Source: an uncultured Melioribacteraceae bacterium
GTDB taxonomy: Bacteria; Bacteroidota; Ignavibacteria; Ignavibacteriales; Melioribacteraceae
Assembly: GCA_964639525.1 (NCBI GenBank)
Contig: CAZXDS010000002.1
Span: 1 to 43,545 of the forward strand
Direction of reading: 5' to 3'
Length of the DNA: 43,545 bases
The position numbers were made by a program, and so were the translations under genes. The notes below the pieces were generated by a model. The model was given only the letters and a program-made list of their open reading frames with translations. It was not told the DNA's origin and made no database searches. Position 1 is the first letter of the stretch; the number at the start of each line of letters is the position of its first letter. Below, in pieces: positions 6,082 through 43,545 of this stretch.

Positions 6082-6142
6082 TTTTCCGATTAATTTTTTT
6101 TTACACTAAAAATTGTAGAACCGACTTTCCTCGCAGAGTTCT
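6082..6142 (+). repeat. Repeat unit 1: 48-bp direct repeat ending in a degenerate GTAG-headed palindrome (REP-like)
   Basis: 6082-6129 matches 6215-6262 at about 44/48 positions. GTAG is at 6115-6118, followed by AGAAC..GTTCT (a weak 5-bp stem). Confidence 0.6.
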
Positions 6143-6214: not shown

Positions 6215-6272
6215 TTTTCCGGTTAATTTTTTTTAATACTGAAAATTGTAGAACCGACTTTCTAGTCGGTTC
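6215..6272 (+). repeat. Repeat unit 2: 48-bp direct repeat ending in a perfect GTAG-headed palindrome (REP-like)
   Basis: GTAG at 6248-6251. Hairpin GAACCGACT-TTCT-AGTCGGTTC at 6251-6272 (9-bp perfect stem). Confidence 0.65.
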
Positions 6273-8509: not shown

Positions 8510-8595
8510 AATAGAAAATTTTTTTGATGCTTTATTATTCAACTAATTTAATGTTCTGATTTATAGAGTATAAATTTTCTTCATAATTCATGTAT

Positions 8596-8714
8596 GAGCC
8601 CACTCTAAAAAGCCACAAACGGACTAAAGTCCGTTTGGGGAAGTTCGTTTTTAGTCTGTTCCCCCACGACTGAAGTCGTGGGTTAGTAAAAATATTACTT
8701 TTTAGAATGGACTC
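8596..8714. mobile_element. MITE copy 1 (119 bp; 17-bp TIRs; 6-bp TSD ATGTAT)
   Basis: The ends are GAGCCCACTCTAAAAAG and CTTTTTAGAATGGACTC. Flanking hexamers ATGTAT lie at 8590-8595 and 8715-8720. Internal hairpins are CAAACGGACT-AA-AGTCCGTTTG and CCCACGACT-GA-AGTCGTGGG. Confidence 0.72.
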
Positions 8715-8863
8715 ATGTATTGTGTATTGTTGCAAAATGGGAAGTTCTTAAAAATAGACAACGATTTTCAAATAATAGACTATTTATCTAATTTTATCGC
8801 TATTTTGTTTTGGCAAGATTTTTGCAGTTTAACTAATTATGAGAAACATCAATTTAAATTATA

Positions 8864-11227: not shown

Positions 11228-12694
11228 ATGGAGGTTTTTTTACAAAATTTACTTGGACAGTTAAGTTATAATCCAACTGAACCGTTAATTTTTAATACCG
11301 GATTCTTTTTGTTTTTCTTTTTGTTCGTGCTGATATTCAATCAGTTTTTTGTAAATAATAAAAGGGCACAAATAATATTTCTGTTGTCGGAATCCCTTTT
11401 CTTCTATTACAAATCGAGCGGTATTTTCTTCGTCCTTGTAATAATCAGTTCTCTTATTGATTATATTGCCGGTAAATCTATTGCAGCTTCTGATTCTAAA
11501 GGCAGACGAAAATTTTACCTTATTATTAGTTTAATAACTAATCTCGGGATACTTGGTTATTTTAAATATACCAATTTCTTTCTAGACACATTAAATTCTA
11601 TCGGAGCCGGACATTTTGACATGATGGATATTTTCCTTCCGGTAGGAGTTTCCTTTTTTACTTTCCAATCAATGAGTTATACTATTGATATTTACCGCAA
11701 TAAGTTAAAGCCTGTGCATAATTTTTTCGATTTCGTGTTTTTTGTTTCATTCTTTCCGCAGTTGGTTGCAGGGCCAATTGTACGCGCAGCGGATTTTCTT
11801 CCGCAAATTCACAAACCAACCTTTGTTAGTAAAGCAGATCTTGGCAAAGCATTTTTCTTAATTATTGCGGGACTAATGAAAAAAGCAATTATTGCTGATT
11901 TTATAAGTATTAATTTTGTTGATAGAATTTTTCAGTGGCCCACACGTTTTACCGGAGTTGAAAATCTACTCGGTGTGTACGGTTACGTACTACAAATTTA
12001 TTGCGACTTTTCCGGCTACTCCGATATGGCAATTGGAATTGCATTGCTGCTCGGTTTCAGATTACCTGATAACTTTAATGCACCGTATAAATCCAAGACA
12101 ATAACTGAACTGTGGCAGCGGTGGCACATTTCACTTTCCTCCTGGTTACGAGATTATCTTTATATTCCGCTCGGAGGAAATAGGAAAGGGAACGTTAGAA
12201 CTTATATAAACTTAATGCTGACAATGCTGCTTGGCGGACTTTGGCACGGCGCTGCTTGGCGATTTATGTTCTGGGGAGGAATACATGGACTCGCTCTAGC
12301 TGTTGAACGATTTTTTCATATTCCTGAAAAAATTGAAAAAAAGAGATTTATTAAAATTATTGCTGTGATTATAACATTTCATATTTGGACAATTTCTCTC
12401 ATATTTTTTAGAGCACAATCTATTAGTTCTGCCCTTGATATTATTAATCAAATAGTAAATTATTTTAATGGAGCTGTTTTCTTCCAGTTTGTTAAAGCTT
12501 CACCTGTTGTTTTTGCTTTGATGATAATTGGTTACGTCTCCCATTATCTTCCAATAAAATGGGAATTGAAAATGAAAGACTGGCTTGCCGCAATGCCGAA
12601 TTGGGGAAGAGCTTTTGTGCTGGTTATTGTTATTTATATTGTTGCTCAATTTAAGTCTGCTGATATTCAGCCGTTTATTTATTTTCAGTTTTAA
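11228..12694 (+). CDS. MBOAT family O-acyltransferase (AlgI/PatA/DltB-like)
   Basis: 488 aa, polytopic. Signature WQRWHISLSSWLRDYLYIPLGGNRKG with the conserved His, plus downstream GGLWHGAAW. Confidence 0.9.
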   Translation: MEVFLQNLLGQLSYNPTEPLIFNTGFFLFFFLFVLIFNQFFVNNKRAQIIFLLSESLFFYYKSSGIFFVLVIISSLIDYIAGKSIAASDSKGRRKFYLIISLITNLGILGYFKYTNFFLDTLNSIGAGHFDMMDIFLPVGVSFFTFQSMSYTIDIYRNKLKPVHNFFDFVFFVSFFPQLVAGPIVRAADFLPQIHKPTFVSKADLGKAFFLIIAGLMKKAIIADFISINFVDRIFQWPTRFTGVENLLGVYGYVLQIYCDFSGYSDMAIGIALLLGFRLPDNFNAPYKSKTITELWQRWHISLSSWLRDYLYIPLGGNRKGNVRTYINLMLTMLLGGLWHGAAWRFMFWGGIHGLALAVERFFHIPEKIEKKRFIKIIAVIITFHIWTISLIFFRAQSISSALDIINQIVNYFNGAVFFQFVKASPVVFALMIIGYVSHYLPIKWELKMKDWLAAMPNWGRAFVLVIVIYIVAQFKSADIQPFIYFQF

Positions 12695-12699
12695 GTAAT

Positions 12700-12819
12700 G
12701 AGTCCACTCTAAAAAGCCCCAAACGGACTAAAAGTCCGTTTGGGGAAGTTCGTTTTTAGTCTGTTTCCCCACGACTGAAGTCGTGGGTTAGTCAAAATAT
12801 CACTTTTTAGAATGGACTC
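12700..12819. mobile_element. MITE copy 2 (120 bp; 17-bp TIRs; 6-bp TSD AGTAAT)
   Basis: The ends are GAGTCCACTCTAAAAAG and CTTTTTAGAATGGACTC. Hexamers AGTAAT lie at 12694-12699 and 12820-12825. About 95 percent identical to copy 1 by eye. Confidence 0.75.
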
Positions 12820-12932
12820 AGTAATTTTAAGGAAAAGGATTCCAAAATTGTTCTAAATAATAAGTTTTTTTCATATCTTTTTAAGTTAAAATTAAACTAT
12901 TTTTAATAATTGATTAATTTTATAAAACCGAT

Positions 12933-19689: not shown

Positions 19690-19712
19690 ACCGATTCGAA
19701 AGTCGGTTCTAC
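19690..19712 (-). repeat. Solitary GTAG-headed palindrome (REP-like)
   Basis: The plus strand reads ACCGATT-CGAA-AGTCGGTTCTAC. The minus strand reads GTAGAACCGACTTTCGAATCGGT and shares the 17-mer TTGTAGAACCGACTTTC with the copies at 6113 and 6246. Confidence 0.6.
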
Positions 19713-19765
19713 AAATATTTATCGGTATTTTTCAATAATTAATTTCCTAACTTATTGTAGGTACA

Positions 19766-26531: not shown

Positions 26532-26648
26532 TTTTACCTCATTTCATAAATATTGGTTTCTAAAAATAGGAAGTAATAACATAAAATGTGTTTTAATATA
26601 TTAGAAATTTTTTTATTTAAAAAATTAGTTTGAAGACAATGCAAATAT

Positions 26649-26770
26649 GAGTCCACTCCGAAAAACTCCAAACGGGTTTTAACCCGTTTGGGATTGTATG
26701 TTTTTTATATCTTGTTTTCCCCACGTTGAAACGTGGGGTTAATGAAAATATTACTTTTCAGAGTGGACTC
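26649..26770. mobile_element. MITE copy 3 (122 bp; divergent subfamily; 6-bp TSD AAATAT)
   Basis: The ends are GAGTCCACTCCGAAAA and TTTTCAGAGTGGACTC. Hexamers AAATAT lie at 26643-26648 and 26771-26776. Internal hairpins are CCAAACGGGTT-TT-AACCCGTTTGG and CCCCACGT-TGAA-ACGTGGGG. Confidence 0.72.
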
Positions 26771-26867
26771 AAATATCAAATATTTGAAGAAAGCTAATAT
26801 TGTATTTTTTGAATAATATCAGTAAATTTGTACTCTTTATGAAAATGAATAAACAGGTAATGGAAAA

Positions 26868-32865: not shown

Positions 32866-35700
32866 TTACCTCAGCAGCACCATTTTTTTTGCTTCCGCAA
32901 AATTAACGGTTTTCCCAACAGCTGTTAAGCGGTAAATATATACTCCGCTTGCAAGTTTAGAGGCATTAAAAATAATTTTATGACTGCCGGAGACAGACTG
33001 CTTTTCATTCACAAGTGTCGCAATTTCACGCCCTAAAATATCATATATCTTCAAATGAATTACCGGAATATCGCCACTCTTAAAAACCGGCACAAAATAT
33101 TTTATTGTAGTACTCGGGTTAAACGGGTTCGGGTAATTTTGATTTAATACAAATTTTGTCGGGTTAATTTCCCCTCGTTCTTTTACTGATTTAATAATGA
33201 TACCGTTATAAAAATTCTGAATAAACGCTGCTTTTTCTCTTAACTTGGTTATGCTGTTTAATCTGTCACTTCCTCGTGCCATTAAAATTGCATAAGCTAC
33301 TTCCTGTGTATCCCCGGCTGCAAGCGTAAAAGGGCCGGAAGATTCCATATATCTTTTATCCCCGCGAGTTGGTCCATCGGGCCAACCTGGTCCTTCGTAC
33401 CAACCATTTCCGCTTACAGGATCACCGGCAACCATAAAATGCGTAGTATCATTATTATTTGGAGCCAAAATTGGAGTGCCATAAATAGTAAAGCCTCGCA
33501 TATAGTTATACATCTGTTCTGTCCCCGCATATTCACTTTGATAGGGTGCCCCAAAATTTGGATAGCCAGGGTCCTTAACAAAAGAAATAAAAGAATTTAG
33601 CCCCTTGTTTAAATATCCTTTATGCCAGCCACTATTAAACCATGCAGAATCTTCCATTGTTGCCTGAACTTTTGGACCTTGTACCATCATGTGTCCAACT
33701 GCCGGAGGTTGTGAACCATAAAACCAGTCATCATATTCATCTCCGTTGTAAGTATAACCCAAATTTAACGAAGTATCTACTCCCACGTAATCATCTCCCG
33801 CAAATCCAAGATCGTCATCAGTCCAATATGATAAATACATATCCGTTATCGGGACATCTCCCTTATTTATTATTTTATATTTTTTAAAAACTACATCCTC
33901 TAATCTTTCTTGGTTATATCCCCAAATTGTAGTCTGAAATTCTAATGGAACCGGTGGTGAACCATACACATTAGCAGATAATTCAACATCCGCACTATTG
34001 TTTACATAAAAAAATGCTTCGTCTCCGAGAACATTGTCATCAACTCCGGGTGTATAAATTCCATCATTATCTCTATCAATAACCGGAGCACCTAAGTCAG
34101 CCGGCCAATTATTATAATCATATTTTAGCCTACTTTTTTCTTTCCCTTCGGGAAGGAGTTCCCAATTTTTTTTACTCTTATATATTTTATACTCTGATCT
34201 TTGGGGAATATCCGGCATTCCATTTTCCAATATAATACCGGGGCTAAATCCATGACGATAATTTGAGCCGTTGACTCTAATTTCATCATTATATTTTCCA
34301 CCGAAAAAGAGCCCATCCTCAAAAACAGCAGATATTGTTGCATCTATTCCACCGGGCCAGAAAAAGCCACCGTTGTCGGTTTGCGGGTTATGTGAACCGT
34401 CTCCGTTATTTCCAAACCACATCCTAACATTGTTTACTGCGATTTTATCGTAGGCTTGATATACTATTACAGACAGAGATGAGTCATTTCTATCATAAAC
34501 ATTCGGATTATTTGAATCGGTTATTTTTATATAAACTGAATTTGAGTTTATTTCAGGTACTAACCAAGAATATTGTAATGAATCTGCAGGAAAGTTAGAA
34601 TCTATTTCTGTCCAAGAACCTTCTAAAGCAGTTGAATATGAAATATTAATAGTTGTGCCGGATATATTATATTTATCCCATTTAAGAACTGTAATTTTGT
34701 CGGGCTTAAAAATGTTATAATACGAAGGATTATAATGTAGTGTTAATGTTGAATAATTCCCAATAGAATCTGTTCGTAATAAACTTGAATTTTTTACGTA
34801 CATAAAAAATCCGCCATCATTTGCTTTGTAAATACCTCCGGATATTTTCGGAATTTTCTTCTGCCAAATAATGTTACCTAAGCGATTAATTTCACTTAAT
34901 GTTGTATCTCCTGCCGAGATAATATTATGATTAGGTAAAACATTTGCAAATTGATTAACAAGAGCCGTATTTTCCCAAATAATTTCTGCATTTAAGTTAT
35001 ATCGTGAAATAGGTCCCGATTTACCGGTTAAACAAAATCCATCAAAAAAAGGAAAAATTGAATTTATTTCGGGAGTTTCCTTTTCCCATAAATAAGCTCC
35101 ATGAATATCAAATTTGATTATGCTATTTCCTGTACTAACTAAATACGATAAATCAGATAATCTAATTATTTGCATGTTTACATTGGGACTTATATTAATG
35201 TACCAGTATGTTTTATTCCAAATTACCGTACCATCAAATTCAGTTTTTTGCATGTAGAGTTGATCACCCTCAGCTCCCAATATTAACAGTTTAGAATCTG
35301 CGGTAATAATGATGTCATGAAAATAAAAAATATTTTCATCATCGCCATATGTATAATCGCTAATCGAATTGCCGAGTGAATCATAAACCATTAAACAAAT
35401 ATCGTCATCGTTGTTTGTATAGCCTGTTAAATAATTACCATTTGATAATTTAATTGTTTTATTAATATAATTTTTTGTATTTATTGTTTTTCTCCATTCG
35501 CTAAATCCTTCCGCATTTAATTTTATTAGATTTATATTATGCCATTGGATGCTAGTAATAATACTGCCATTATCATCTGTGGGCAACAATGTTTTGTCAG
35601 AGTAAGAACTCAAAAATTTTAAGAATGTCGTACGTTGAGCTTTTATATTTAGAAATGCTGTAATTATAAACAAAGATAGTAAAACTTTTCCTGCGTTCAT
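32866..35700 (-). CDS. T9SS-secreted multidomain protein (beta-propeller-like repeats, Ig-like domain, conserved unknown module, type-A CTD)
   Basis: 944 aa with a signal peptide. The repeated G..(I/L)W.K motif (SEWRK, VIWNK, YLWEK, IIWEN, IIWQK) suggests a propeller. The C-terminus LNQNYPNPFNPSTTIKY...GVYIYRL...KKMVLLR is a T9SS CTD. SD GGAGAAAGG. Confidence 0.8.
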   Translation of the reverse strand: MNAGKVLLSLFIITAFLNIKAQRTTFLKFLSSYSDKTLLPTDDNGSIITSIQWHNINLIKLNAEGFSEWRKTINTKNYINKTIKLSNGNYLTGYTNNDDDICLMVYDSLGNSISDYTYGDDENIFYFHDIIITADSKLLILGAEGDQLYMQKTEFDGTVIWNKTYWYINISPNVNMQIIRLSDLSYLVSTGNSIIKFDIHGAYLWEKETPEINSIFPFFDGFCLTGKSGPISRYNLNAEIIWENTALVNQFANVLPNHNIISAGDTTLSEINRLGNIIWQKKIPKISGGIYKANDGGFFMYVKNSSLLRTDSIGNYSTLTLHYNPSYYNIFKPDKITVLKWDKYNISGTTINISYSTALEGSWTEIDSNFPADSLQYSWLVPEINSNSVYIKITDSNNPNVYDRNDSSLSVIVYQAYDKIAVNNVRMWFGNNGDGSHNPQTDNGGFFWPGGIDATISAVFEDGLFFGGKYNDEIRVNGSNYRHGFSPGIILENGMPDIPQRSEYKIYKSKKNWELLPEGKEKSRLKYDYNNWPADLGAPVIDRDNDGIYTPGVDDNVLGDEAFFYVNNSADVELSANVYGSPPVPLEFQTTIWGYNQERLEDVVFKKYKIINKGDVPITDMYLSYWTDDDLGFAGDDYVGVDTSLNLGYTYNGDEYDDWFYGSQPPAVGHMMVQGPKVQATMEDSAWFNSGWHKGYLNKGLNSFISFVKDPGYPNFGAPYQSEYAGTEQMYNYMRGFTIYGTPILAPNNNDTTHFMVAGDPVSGNGWYEGPGWPDGPTRGDKRYMESSGPFTLAAGDTQEVAYAILMARGSDRLNSITKLREKAAFIQNFYNGIIIKSVKERGEINPTKFVLNQNYPNPFNPSTTIKYFVPVFKSGDIPVIHLKIYDILGREIATLVNEKQSVSGSHKIIFNASKLASGVYIYRLTAVGKTVNFAEAKKMVLLR

Positions 35701-35774: not shown

Positions 35775-37436
35775 TTAACGCAGTAAAATCATTTTTTTCG
35801 AAACTTCAAAACGTCCGGCTTCAATTCTGTATATGTAAATTCCGCTTGCGAGATTGCTTGCATTAAAATTAACCGAATACTTTCCAATAGGTTTCTCTTC
35901 ATTTACTAAAACAGCTACGGTTTCACCAATTATATTATAAACTTTGATAGTAACAAATTCATTTTCCGGCAGTGTATAATTAATTGTTGTAGTAGGATTA
36001 AACGGATTGGGATAATTTTGAGATATTGAATAATCTGTAGGAGTTTCATCAATCGGGATGCCCTTATCCGGTTTATAAGCATTATAAAATATTTTTAGCT
36101 TTGGTATTTCTTTTTTGAGTTCGGCAACACTTTGAAGTGCACTTAAGCCTTGTGCAACAATAATTGCAAATTCAACTTCTTGTGTATCGCCGGGAGCAAA
36201 ATTAAAAGGACCTGAGGATAACATCATTCTAACATTTCCAGGCGGTTGTCTTAAAAGTGAATCATTAATTCCTTCAAACCAGCCGGTACTATCAACAGGA
36301 TCTCCGGAAAACATATATTTTGTGGTATCGCCTGAAACAGGGTTTACAATTTTATCTCCATTTTTCTCCAAACCCTGAAAATAATTGTAAAAATGCTGCG
36401 GAGTTACAGAATCAGGAGACTGATTAAAAAAATCACTGCTGGGCAAGAGAAAACTAAAGGAGGTCATTCTTAACATTTCTGATTGTGCGGATTCCGGATT
36501 TGATTTAGGACCTTTTAGCATAACGTATCCCACAGCAGGCGGAGCGCCGACAAAAGCATCATCATCAGATGCATTAAAACAATATCCCAAATTTAATACT
36601 GAATCGCATCCTGCATAATCATTACCTGAATAGCCCAAATCCGGGTCCGACCAATAACCCAAATACATATTTTTTACTGTGTGCTGTCCCTTATTAATAA
36701 GTTTATATTTTTTAAAAATTACATTTTTCAAAAAGTCAGGTCTATCAAAACCGTATGTTGTTACTTGCATTTCAATCCCAATAGGTTCAACAAAAATAGC
36801 CCTTGAAAACTCACCATCAGATTTCCAGAAAATAGAAAGAGAGGAATCCAAATCATTTGCAACAAACCACAAAGTTTCATCACCGATGTAGCGGGGAGTA
36901 TCAACTCCGCGTGTAAAAATTCCATCACCGTTTAAGTCATTCCAAGGTGCTCCGTCTTCAACCGGCCATTCATTGTAATCTTTTTCATATAAATCCCGTT
37001 TGGGACCAGGAGGTAAAGTTTTCCAATACTTAAAAATTTTAAATACTCTGTATTTGTCCAAATCAGGATTATCGGCATTTCCACTGTTTAATATTTTACC
37101 GGACTGCATACCTGTTCGATATCTGCTGCCATTTGCACGAACCTCCGAATCAACAATTCCACCCCAGTTTAGTCCGTCTGTAAAAATTATGCTGCTTTTT
37201 TCAGATAATGAAGTTTCGCTATTTGACCATAAAAATCCGGAATTACCTGTACGAGGATCAATACTGCCCAAACCATTATTTTCCAACCACATATAACATT
37301 GGTTTATATCAATGAAATTGTAATTATTAATTGTGGAAATTTTATTTTGAGTGTTTTTTTGCGGGAATTTTCCGCCGATAAAAAGGAGAAATAAAATAGA
37401 GGTTAAACTAATAACACTATTCGTATTGTTTTTCAT
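35775..37436 (-). CDS. T9SS-secreted protein, paralog of the C-terminal 530 aa of the downstream 944-aa protein
   Basis: 553 aa with a signal peptide. It shares blocks with 32866..35700: (M)W..NNG.GS..P.T.N.GF.W, R.NGS.YR.G, Y..W.(T/L)LP.G, NDGI(Y/F)T.GVD, IFKKYK(I/L)INKG, PPAVG, SSGPF..A.GDTQEV. The CTD is SQNYPNPFNPTTTINY...GIYIYRI...KKMILLR. Confidence 0.8.
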   Translation of the reverse strand: MKNNTNSVISLTSILFLLFIGGKFPQKNTQNKISTINNYNFIDINQCYMWLENNGLGSIDPRTGNSGFLWSNSETSLSEKSSIIFTDGLNWGGIVDSEVRANGSRYRTGMQSGKILNSGNADNPDLDKYRVFKIFKYWKTLPPGPKRDLYEKDYNEWPVEDGAPWNDLNGDGIFTRGVDTPRYIGDETLWFVANDLDSSLSIFWKSDGEFSRAIFVEPIGIEMQVTTYGFDRPDFLKNVIFKKYKLINKGQHTVKNMYLGYWSDPDLGYSGNDYAGCDSVLNLGYCFNASDDDAFVGAPPAVGYVMLKGPKSNPESAQSEMLRMTSFSFLLPSSDFFNQSPDSVTPQHFYNYFQGLEKNGDKIVNPVSGDTTKYMFSGDPVDSTGWFEGINDSLLRQPPGNVRMMLSSGPFNFAPGDTQEVEFAIIVAQGLSALQSVAELKKEIPKLKIFYNAYKPDKGIPIDETPTDYSISQNYPNPFNPTTTINYTLPENEFVTIKVYNIIGETVAVLVNEEKPIGKYSVNFNASNLASGIYIYRIEAGRFEVSKKMILLR

Positions 37437-43035: not shown

Positions 43036-43545
43036 TTATCTAACCAAAATCATTTTTTTTGTTTTTGAAAAACTACCCGTTTCGTTGGTTGCGGATATTC
43101 GGTAAATGTAAATACCGCTTGATAATTTTTTAGAATTAAATGTTACTTGGTAATTTCCTTTGGACTCAAATGCATTAACTAAAGTTTCTATTTCTTTTCC
43201 AAGAACATTATAAACATTAACTTTAACAAAACTATTCTCAGGAATTGCGTACCTGATTATTGTTGACGGGTTAAAAGGATTCGGATAATTTTGATATAGC
43301 TTAAAACTATTTACACTTGCATTGTTGTCGTTTTGTACGTCAGTAATAACCGAATAATATACAGTTAGTCCTTCCGTAAAGAATCCGAAATGGAAATTGT
43401 CATAACTAATCTCAATTACTCCTATTCCCTGAACCCAATTGTTATTATACCAAACTCTGCACACAGCCGTTTTTAACAAACTATATTCATTGTAGGAATA
43501 CAAATATTTTATTGAATTTTGCCAGTTGTTGTTCCATAGCTTGTC
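43036..43545 (-). CDS. T9SS-secreted protein, C-terminal part (the ORF runs off the window end)
   Basis: The reading frame stays open to position 43545 (..DKLWNNNWQNSIKYLYSYNEY..). The CTD is YQNYPNPFNPSTIIRY...GIYIYRI...KKMILVR. Confidence 0.7.
   Translation of the reverse strand, partial: DKLWNNNWQNSIKYLYSYNEYSLLKTAVCRVWYNNNWVQGIGVIEISYDNFHFGFFTEGLTVYYSVITDVQNDNNASVNSFKLYQNYPNPFNPSTIIRYAIPENSFVKVNVYNVLGKEIETLVNAFESKGNYQVTFNSKKLSSGIYIYRISATNETGSFSKTKKMILVR

What the first reader, a model, noticed from the sequence alone, without database searches (positions are those of the whole stretch)
26643..26776. Divergent MITE copy 3 upstream of rpmH: compensatory substitutions preserve both internal hairpins and the TIR
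Copy 3 is only about 70 percent identical to copies 1 and 2 but keeps the same architecture, with TSD AAATAT on both sides. Hairpin 1 changes from CCAAACGGACT/AGTCCGTTTGG to CCAAACGGGTT/AACCCGTTTGG, which swaps two base pairs (A:T to G:C and C:G to T:A). Hairpin 2 changes from CCCACGACT/AGTCGTGGG to CCCCACGT/ACGTGGGG. TIR position 12 changes from A:T to G:C on both arms. Covariation in the internal stems implies selection on secondary structure (ssDNA or RNA), not just on transposase-binding ends. This copy sits in the divergent promoter region, 98 nt upstream of the rpmH ATG and 118 nt upstream of the TlpA-like gene start. It could therefore contribute promoter, operator or leader structure to an essential operon.
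Basis: seen in the sequence. Interest (0 to 1): 0.72.

Follow-up and report, generated by a model that had tools for sequence, protein, structure and literature searches.

The report
Small mobile repeat upstream of rpmH
This is a 122-bp non-coding transposable element (a MITE) that recently landed between two divergent genes. Its two internal hairpins are kept intact between element subfamilies, but nothing indicates that it is part of the rpmH promoter or leader.

Summary
Window 26649-26770 is a 122-bp element with 17-bp terminal inverted repeats (GAGTCCACTCYRAAAA), a 6-bp duplication (AAATAT) and two G+C-rich hairpins. Its stem differences from copies 1 and 2 (8596-8714, 12700-12819) are complementary.

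It belongs to a large MITE superfamily in Ignavibacteria, Bacteroidales and Calditrichota MAGs. Of 148 unique insertions, 89 have a perfect 6-bp duplication with consensus AWNNWT. About 25 unrelated interiors share the same ends.

The two-hairpin family has subfamilies A (copies 1 and 2), B, C (copy 3) and D, all 119 nt in consensus. Every stem difference between subfamilies keeps the pairing. Within subfamilies only 1 of about 21 hairpin substitutions restores a pair, so settled copies seem to decay freely. The constraint therefore acts on the propagating lineage or its unknown parent IS.

Half of the same-end MITE clusters have no structured interior, so hairpins are not generally needed for mobility.

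A conserved promoter-like block (TTG-N20-TAAATTTG, 26800-26830) lies downstream of the element. It is also present in relatives that lack the element, and copy 2 is absent from the orthologous site in relatives. This is an ordinary, apparently undescribed MITE family. The parent transposase was not found.

The parts
26643..26648 (.). Left copy of the 6-bp target-site duplication, AAATAT
   Evidence: Identical hexamer at 26771-26776. It fits the AWNNWT target consensus from 89 perfect TSDs.
26649..26665 (+). Left terminal inverted repeat, GAGTCCACTCCGAAAAA
   Evidence: Positions 11-17 are conserved across unrelated-interior clusters although the search pattern did not require them.
26667..26692 (.). 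Hairpin 1: 10-11-bp G+C-rich stem with a 4-nt loop. It is terminator-like on both strands. On the - strand it is followed by AGTTTTTCGG, a T-run supplied by the left TIR.
26719..26738. Hairpin 2: CCCCACGT-TGAA-ACGTGGGG, an 8-bp stem
   Evidence: It exists in three stem versions across subfamilies and a cousin family.
26754..26770 (-). Right terminal inverted repeat (reverse complement GAGTCCACTCTGAAAAG)
26771..26776 (.). Right copy of the target-site duplication, AAATAT
8596..8714 (+). Copy 1 (subfamily A), flanked by TSD ATGTAT at 8590-8595 and 8715-8720
12700..12819 (+). Copy 2 (subfamily A), flanked by TSD AGTAAT at 12694-12699 and 12820-12825. It starts 5 nt after the MBOAT stop codon. It is absent from the orthologous spacer in relatives L210 and L211.
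26799..26830 (+). Context, not part of the element: conserved promoter-like block ATTG-N20-TAAATTTG upstream of rpmH, 22 nt beyond the right TSD
   Evidence: Conserved in L207, L208 and L209, which have no MITE there. Reading it as a -33/-7 promoter rests on the Bacteroides consensus TTTG/TAnnTTTG, which is my own knowledge.

Best explanation
Copy 3 is a non-autonomous cut-and-paste DNA transposon (a MITE) of an Ignavibacteria (Melioribacteraceae-like) genome. It is moved in trans by a not-yet-identified DDE-type transposase. That enzyme recognises the roughly 17-bp ends GAGTCCACTCYRAAAAR and makes a 6-bp staggered cut at AWNNWT targets (inferred from the TSDs).

Copy 3 belongs to subfamily C of a 119-nt two-hairpin family. 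Copies 1 and 2 belong to subfamily A. The two subfamilies differ at about 27% of positions, yet every stem difference is complementary. Hairpin integrity has therefore been kept along the lineages that gave rise to new copies, either the master MITEs or the ends of the parent IS variants they derive from (inferred).

Once inserted, copies accumulate uncompensated stem mutations, so the resident copy itself does not appear to be under strong structural selection.

The most likely role of the hairpins is element-level. Hairpin 1 together with the T-run of the TIR forms an outward-facing (and weaker inward-facing) intrinsic-terminator-like module. Such a module would insulate the element and its neighbours from read-through transcription. 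This role is inferred and was not tested.

The insertion upstream of rpmH lies in the neutral middle of a divergent intergenic region. It is distal to the conserved promoter-proximal sequences of both genes, and it is a lineage-specific insertion rather than part of the rpmH control region.
For: TIR, TSD and copy number:
- Three window copies each carry a different 6-bp TSD.
- 89 of 148 unique insertions have a perfect 6-bp TSD, against 0.8% by chance, with consensus A-W-N-N-W-T.
- The same ends bound about 25 unrelated interiors in many MAGs.
- TIR positions 11-17 are conserved although the search did not require them.

Presence/absence:
- Relatives with 92% identical MBOAT lack copy 2. Their spacer is 140 nt, against 238 nt in the window.
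- Relatives with 82-83% identical YidC lack any element upstream of rpmH.

Subfamilies and compensation:
- 106 full copies fall into types A, B, C and D plus chimeras.
- A and B differ at 30 of 119 positions. The hairpin 1 differences (28, 29, 34, 35) are all compensated, hairpin 2 is symmetrically re-registered, and TIR position 12 pairs with 108.
- 95% of stem cells pair, against 50% in slid controls.
- A cousin MITE with different outer ends keeps hairpin 2 in a third version, CCCACGAT/ATCGTGGG.

Decay in place:
- Only 1 of about 21 hairpin substitutions within subfamilies gives a Watson-Crick pair, and none is a compensating double change.

Terminator-like form:
-.

Promoter downstream:
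Against: - No autonomous element with these ends was found in 1.4 Mb of held loci, in viral contigs, in plasmids or in the literature. The transposase and its family are therefore inferred only.
- 12 of 25 same-end clusters have structured interiors (z < -2), but 13 do not. One unstructured cluster has 24 copies, so hairpins are not a general requirement for mobility.
- Orientation relative to flanking genes shows no significant bias: 14 versus 6 between tandem genes, with duplicate sampling. That gives no support for a terminator role.
- Stem substitution density within subfamilies is somewhat lower than in unpaired parts. For hairpin 2 it is 7/720 against 45/1991. Weak purifying selection on resident copies is therefore not excluded.
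- Only a handful of independent compensatory events exist.
Confidence: 0.78

Rival explanations
1. The compensatory pattern has a mutational cause, not a selective one. Perfect palindromes are restored by intrastrand template switching (quasipalindrome correction) or by conversion between arms. A change on one arm is copied to the other, so symmetry is kept without any function.
For: - The hairpin 1 changes are two adjacent positions mirrored on both arms.
- Hairpin 2 of A versus B/C is shifted symmetrically about an unchanged centre, and all consensuses stay exactly 119 nt. Such symmetry is what templated events produce.
- Half of the same-end MITE clusters lack internal structure, so there is no obvious need for hairpins.
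Against: Among 48 resident copies with about 21 hairpin substitutions, none shows a mirrored second change. Correction is therefore rare compared with point mutation. Yet all four subfamily founders and the cousin family have perfect stems despite about 25% divergence elsewhere.
Confidence: 0.2
2. Copy 3 has been recruited by the host. Its hairpins would act as a bidirectional terminator or insulator between the divergent TlpA-like and rpmH promoters, or as part of rpmH regulation.
For: - Hairpin 1 scores as terminator-like on both strands in copies 2 and 3 and on the - strand in copy 1.
- Copies 1 and 2 sit just downstream of + strand genes, and copy 2 starts 5 nt after a stop codon.
- Stems vary slightly less than unpaired parts within subfamilies.
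Against: - The element is absent upstream of rpmH in relatives, whose promoter-like block is conserved and lies downstream of the insertion point.
- The TlpA-like gene has a different upstream neighbour in relatives, so the junction is young.
- There is no orientation bias.
- Resident copies carry uncompensated stem mutations.
Confidence: 0.15
3. The element encodes a stable structured small RNA (about 120 nt) with a function of its own.
For: Very stable predicted fold on both strands, with z -8 to -10. All three TIR mismatches (position 8 in subfamily A, position 11 in B and C) become G-U pairs on the - strand.
Against: - No Rfam family matches at the gathering threshold, and only chance-level matches appear at E < 1.
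- No promoter is evident inside the element.
- The copies lie in all orientations relative to genes.
- The same ends carry about 25 unrelated interiors, half of them unstructured.
- Most of the fold energy comes from the TIRs, which are explained by transposition.
Confidence: 0.05

Closest known systems
Bacterial MITEs with structured interiors, such as Neisseria Correia elements (NEMIS/CREE), pneumococcal RUP and enterobacterial ERIC (from my own knowledge)
   Same: Similarities:
- About 100-150 bp, non-coding and multi-copy.
- Terminal inverted repeats, target duplications and intergenic location.
- Folds into a long hairpin as RNA.
- Can carry terminator- or promoter-like sequences.
- Present or absent between related strains.
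   Different: Differences:
- Different ends (GAGTCCACTCYRAAAA).
- A 6-bp AWNNWT duplication, whereas Correia elements duplicate TA.
- Different hosts (Ignavibacteria, Bacteroidales, Calditrichota).
- Two discrete internal G+C-rich hairpins.
- No sequence similarity was tested or expected, and no experimental data exist.
IS1634 family of insertion sequences (an IS4-related 'emerging family')
   Same: It makes 5-6-bp AT-rich target duplications (PMC2266710), like the 6-bp AWNNWT duplications seen here. The related ISH3 family makes 5-bp repeats flanked by A and T.
   Different: The published end consensus starts with C (C-----YT), whereas these elements start with GAG. No transposase was found linked to these ends, so the parentage is a lead only. 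ISDol1 (ISNCY, 6-7-bp duplications, from memory) is an equally open candidate.
Rho-independent (intrinsic) transcription terminators
   Same: Hairpin 1 has a 10-13-bp G+C-rich stem and a 3-4-nt loop. On the - strand a T5 run follows within 1-2 nt, and an A-run precedes it, as in bidirectional terminators.
   Different: The T-run is part of the transposon end. On the + strand the T-run begins only several nt after the stem, interrupted by other bases. Hairpin 2 is about 20 nt from any T-run. No termination has been measured.

Membership tests
MITE (miniature inverted-repeat transposable element) | Short (under about 300 bp) with no coding capacity | tested here: met
   119-122 bp. The only ORFs are overlapping 45-66-aa mechanical ORFs.
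MITE (miniature inverted-repeat transposable element) | Terminal inverted repeats | tested here: met
   Ends of 16-17 bp with one mismatch per copy. They are conserved beyond the 10 nt used in the search.
MITE (miniature inverted-repeat transposable element) | Target-site duplication of fixed length that differs between copies | tested here: met
   6 bp in all three window copies. 89 of 148 unique insertions are perfect, against 0.8% by chance, with consensus AWNNWT.
MITE (miniature inverted-repeat transposable element) | Multiple dispersed copies | tested here: met
   106 full copies of the two-hairpin family in held loci, and more than 20 in one MAG.
MITE (miniature inverted-repeat transposable element) | Insertion polymorphism (site without the element in relatives) | tested here: met
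   Copy 2 is absent from the MBOAT-TPR spacer in L210 and L211. No element lies upstream of rpmH in L207 or L209, and none lies in the 76 nt that L208 holds there. The flanks have diverged, so the exact empty hexamer cannot be read.
MITE (miniature inverted-repeat transposable element) | An autonomous IS with the same ends that supplies the transposase | tested here: inconclusive
   None was found in 1.4 Mb of loci, in viral contigs or in plasmids. Repeats are poorly assembled in MAGs, and whole genomes could not be scanned for long elements.
IS1634-family derivative | 5-6-bp AT-rich target duplication | tested here: met
   One search compared with PMC2266710
IS1634-family derivative | End consensus C-----YT | tested here: not met
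   The ends begin GAGTCCAC. The paper notes that IS1634 ends are poorly conserved.
IS1634-family derivative | Linked IS1634-type transposase | not testable with these tools
   No full-length element is available.
Intrinsic terminator | G+C-rich stem-loop immediately followed by a T-run | tested here: met
   Hairpin 1 on the - strand in all three copies, and on the + strand in copies 2 and 3.
Intrinsic terminator | Transcripts end there | not testable with these tools
   No expression data are available.
Any Rfam RNA family | Score at or above the family's gathering threshold | tested here: not met
   0 matches in the whole window. The best local matches score 16-23 bits against thresholds of 44-100.

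The most novel reading that the evidence does not exclude
The internal hairpins would be a selected functional module. Under this reading, a family of MITEs seeds portable, bidirectional intrinsic terminators (or an ssDNA/RNA structure needed for its own mobilisation) through Ignavibacteria genomes. Compensatory evolution would keep the module intact across subfamilies and even across elements with different transposase-binding ends (the cousin MITE keeps hairpin 2).
Probability: 0.25. Interest if true: 0.5.

Novelty: new member of a known kind. Interest (0 to 1): 0.3.

Why it matters
This finding adds an apparently undescribed MITE superfamily, widespread in anaerobic FCB-group bacteria. Its defining features are the ends GAGTCCACTCYRAAAA and a 6-bp AWNNWT duplication. 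It also documents internal stems that stay paired across diverged subfamilies.

There are three practical consequences:
- These repeats break metagenome assemblies, since many copies sit at contig ends.
- They mark recent insertions.
- They could be misread as regulatory RNAs or operators.

If the hairpins prove to be working terminators, the family would be a natural source of portable insulators for a clade with few genetic parts. For rpmH itself the evidence points to no role.

Tried and rejected
Search for the parent IS. None of the following found an autonomous element:
- Paired ends 300-8000 bp apart with matching flanks in all loci. This returned only MITE pairs (L107) and a solo end (L027).
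- Unpaired ends.
- Multi-copy ORFs among 1062 ORFs. The only matches came from the same population sampled twice.
- Viral contigs searched with the family pattern (0 hits) and with the 17-nt end. The single hits were by chance. L200 looked like an IS left end but is followed by phage-like genes.
- Plasmids by blastn, which gave only chance hits.
- Literature by sequence and by keywords.

Empty site for copy 3. Relatives of the TlpA-like gene have DUF2203, not rpmH, as the upstream neighbour. An exact empty site therefore could not be obtained, and rpmH-side relatives were used instead.

Orientation test for a terminator role. There is no significant bias, and some insertions were sampled twice.

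The covariance model R1 found no members of intermediate divergence. True members score at least 122 bits and all other same-end MITEs at most 42 bits.

Rejected readings:
- Known RNA family.
- REP/BIME-like or integron attC-like repeat. The fixed 6-bp duplications that differ between copies argue for transposition.
- Chance palindromes (shuffle controls).

Full report
**Observation.** The region 26643-26776 reads AAATAT | GAGTCCACTCCGAAAAA ... CTTTTCAGAGTGGACTC | AAATAT. Inside lie two perfect G+C-rich hairpins: hairpin 1 within 26667-26692 and hairpin 2 at 26719-26738. Two related copies lie at 8596-8714 (flanked by ATGTAT) and 12700-12819 (flanked by AGTAAT).

The 10-nt end motif occurs six times in the window, against 0.46 expected by chance. 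The paired-end pattern matches only these three places, against none in shuffles. Copy 3 folds with z-scores of -8.5 (+ strand RNA), -10.2 (- strand RNA) and -8.1 (DNA).

The flanking genes are ribosomal protein L34, followed by RNase P protein and YidC, on the + strand. On the - strand there is a 634-aa AhpC/TSA-redoxin protein. The distances of 98 and 118 nt are correct.

**What it is.** A scan of one genome per species with only the two 10-nt ends gave more than 112 loci. They come from Bacteroidales, Ignavibacteria, Calditrichota, Kiritimatiellae and other MAGs. Only 25 of the 118 elements share the two-hairpin interior. The rest carry the same ends around roughly 25 unrelated interiors.

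Among 148 unique insertions, 89 are flanked by a perfect 6-bp direct repeat, against 0.8% for unrelated flanks. The repeat consensus is A-W-N-N-W-T. TIR positions 11-17 (Y-R-A-A-A-A-R) are conserved across clusters although the search did not require them. This is the signature of a MITE superfamily mobilised by one kind of DDE transposase that makes a 6-bp staggered target cut.

YidC and MBOAT homologues place the window in Ignavibacteria, close to Melioribacteraceae. L094, the only family member outside MAG JAHJTX and the window, is from a Melioribacteraceae MAG.

**Insertion polymorphism.** Relatives whose MBOAT protein is 92% identical have the same MBOAT-TPR gene pair. Their spacer is 140 nt, against 238 nt in the window, and it lacks the element. 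The shared downstream block TTTTTTCATATCTTTTTAAGTTAAAA aligns on both sides of the gap.

Relatives with 82-83% identical YidC have rpmH-rnpA-yidC but no element upstream of rpmH. The TlpA-like gene has a different upstream neighbour (DUF2203) in its relatives. The TlpA/rpmH junction is therefore young, and no exact empty site for copy 3 could be obtained.

**Subfamilies and the compensatory changes.** A metagenome scan was anchored on the left end, the 5' arm of hairpin 1 and the right end. That left the 3' arm of hairpin 1 and all of hairpin 2 free to vary. It gave 74 more loci from two metagenomes.

Together with the genome loci there are 106 full copies. They fall into these types:
- Type A: copies 1 and 2, and contigs of metagenome VAPK01.
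- Type B: MAG JAHJTX and metagenome Ga0180009.
- Type C: copy 3 and four VAPK01 contigs.
- Type D: L094, with hairpin 1 of A and hairpin 2 of B.
- A chimera, L177, with the left half of C and the right half of A.

All four consensuses are exactly 119 nt. A and B differ at 30 positions. The four differences in hairpin 1 (positions 28, 29, 34 and 35) form two swapped pairs. Hairpin 2 is re-registered symmetrically about an unchanged centre, from CCCACGAC/GTCGTGGG to CCCCACGT/ACGTGGGG. TIR position 12 co-varies with position 108.

At the base of hairpin 1, type C shows a T-G pair that becomes T-A in L185. A cousin MITE with different outer ends (GAGGCTGTGTGAAAA) shares the right subterminal sequence. 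It carries hairpin 2 in a third version, CCCACGAT/ATCGTGGG.

On 48 distinct sequences, 95.2% of stem cells pair, against 50% with partners slid by one column. Ten pairs change on both sides, and the covariation score is 0.227, against 0.103 in shuffles and 0.04-0.06 in slid controls. The five hairpin 2 pairs are inflated by the register shift. The honest count is about five or six independent compensated events, all between founders.

**Resident copies decay.** I examined 48 full-length 119-nt copies, after removing duplicate insertions, each compared with its own subfamily consensus. Stem substitutions in hairpins 1 and 2 give 10 mismatches, 10 G-T pairs and one Watson-Crick pair (the L185 case). 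None is matched by a second, compensating change.

Substitution density is somewhat lower in stems than in unpaired parts. For hairpin 2 it is 7/720 against 45/1991. However, shared sub-subfamily variants inflate the unpaired class, and hairpin 1 was partly fixed by the search pattern. This is therefore weak evidence at best. The structural constraint is visible in the lineages that found subfamilies, not in the copies that sit in the genome.

**What the hairpins are for.** Interiors of 12 of 25 same-end clusters fold much better than shuffles (z < -2). The other 13, including a 24-copy cluster, do not. Internal structure is therefore common but not required by the transposase.

Hairpin 1 abuts the A/T-run of the left TIR. 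On the - strand it is followed at once by CTTTTT or GTTTTT. On the + strand it is preceded by AAAAA and followed by a more distant T-run. The consensus scan calls it terminator-like on both strands in copies 2 and 3, and on the - strand in copy 1.

The same arrangement is seen in at least one unrelated cluster (L015/L048/L088/L090). An outward- or bidirectionally acting terminator module is therefore my preferred reading, but it is an inference. Orientation relative to neighbouring genes shows no significant bias.

A purely mutational origin of the symmetry, by template switching within palindromes, is a real rival. It is weakened by the absence of mirrored double changes among resident copies.

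**Relation to rpmH.** The 97 nt between the element and the rpmH ATG contain ATTG-N20-TAAATTTG at 26799-26830. This block, together with the sequence just downstream of it, is conserved in three relatives that lack the element. It matches the -33 TTTG / -7 TAnnTTTG promoter form known from Bacteroides (my own knowledge, untested in Ignavibacteria).

The element ends 22 nt (counting the TSD) upstream of this block. The predicted transcription start is therefore downstream of the element. The TlpA-like gene likewise keeps a conserved proximal block, ATTACTTCCTATTTTT, about 45 nt upstream of its ATG. The element sits between the two proximal regions. No Rfam family matches.

**Comparison with known systems.** In kind this is a bacterial MITE like Correia, RUP or ERIC elements. 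It differs in its ends, in its 6-bp AWNNWT duplication, in its hosts and in having two discrete internal hairpins.

The IS1634 family makes 5-6-bp AT-rich duplications, but its published ends begin with C (PMC2266710). ISDol1 (6-7 bp, from memory) is another candidate. No parent element was found. I found no description of this family in the searchable literature.

**Verdict.** It is a new member of a known kind, of modest interest.

Noticed in passing
L107 62-192, 2542-2672 and 5540-5670; also L030 4432-4562 and L050 1242-1372: In a Calditrichota MAG, same-end MITE copies punctuate an array of small toxin-antitoxin-like ORFs. They sit inside short tandem hexamer arrays, (AATCTT/CATCTT)n and (AAAGAT)n, that match the AWNNWT target. 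These arrays could be excision footprints, or tandem arrays could be preferred targets.
   Followed up: partly
L127 7335-7471, L137 2816-2952, L185 194-330: A 137-bp cousin MITE with different outer ends (GAGGCTGTGTGAAAA, possibly extending further out to CCGTTGCAT) shares hairpin 2 and the right subterminal sequence with the window family.
   Followed up: partly
window 6082-6129 and 6215-6262; window 19698-19714 (inverted): A second small repeat. Two 48-nt direct copies, 92% identical and 133 nt apart, lie in the MatE/631-aa-gene spacer. Their core TTGTAGAACCGACTTTC (a hairpin with AGTCGGTTC in one copy) recurs inverted near 19700. Its nature is unknown.
   Followed up: no
window 26531/26868 junction, compared with L187-L189: In relatives, the TlpA-like redoxin gene is preceded by a divergent DUF2203 gene, not by rpmH. 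The MITE therefore lies at a synteny breakpoint specific to the window's lineage.
   Followed up: partly
window 32866-32912, 35775-35821, 43036-43082; and 33104-33146, 35983-36025, 43256-43298: Three - strand genes (944 aa, 553 aa, 155 aa) share similar 3'-terminal DNA segments (repeat families D4 and D5). This probably reflects a shared C-terminal domain of paralogues.
   Followed up: no
L113-L186: Many family copies lie exactly at contig ends in the two metagenomes. The repeat therefore breaks short-read assemblies.
   Followed up: no
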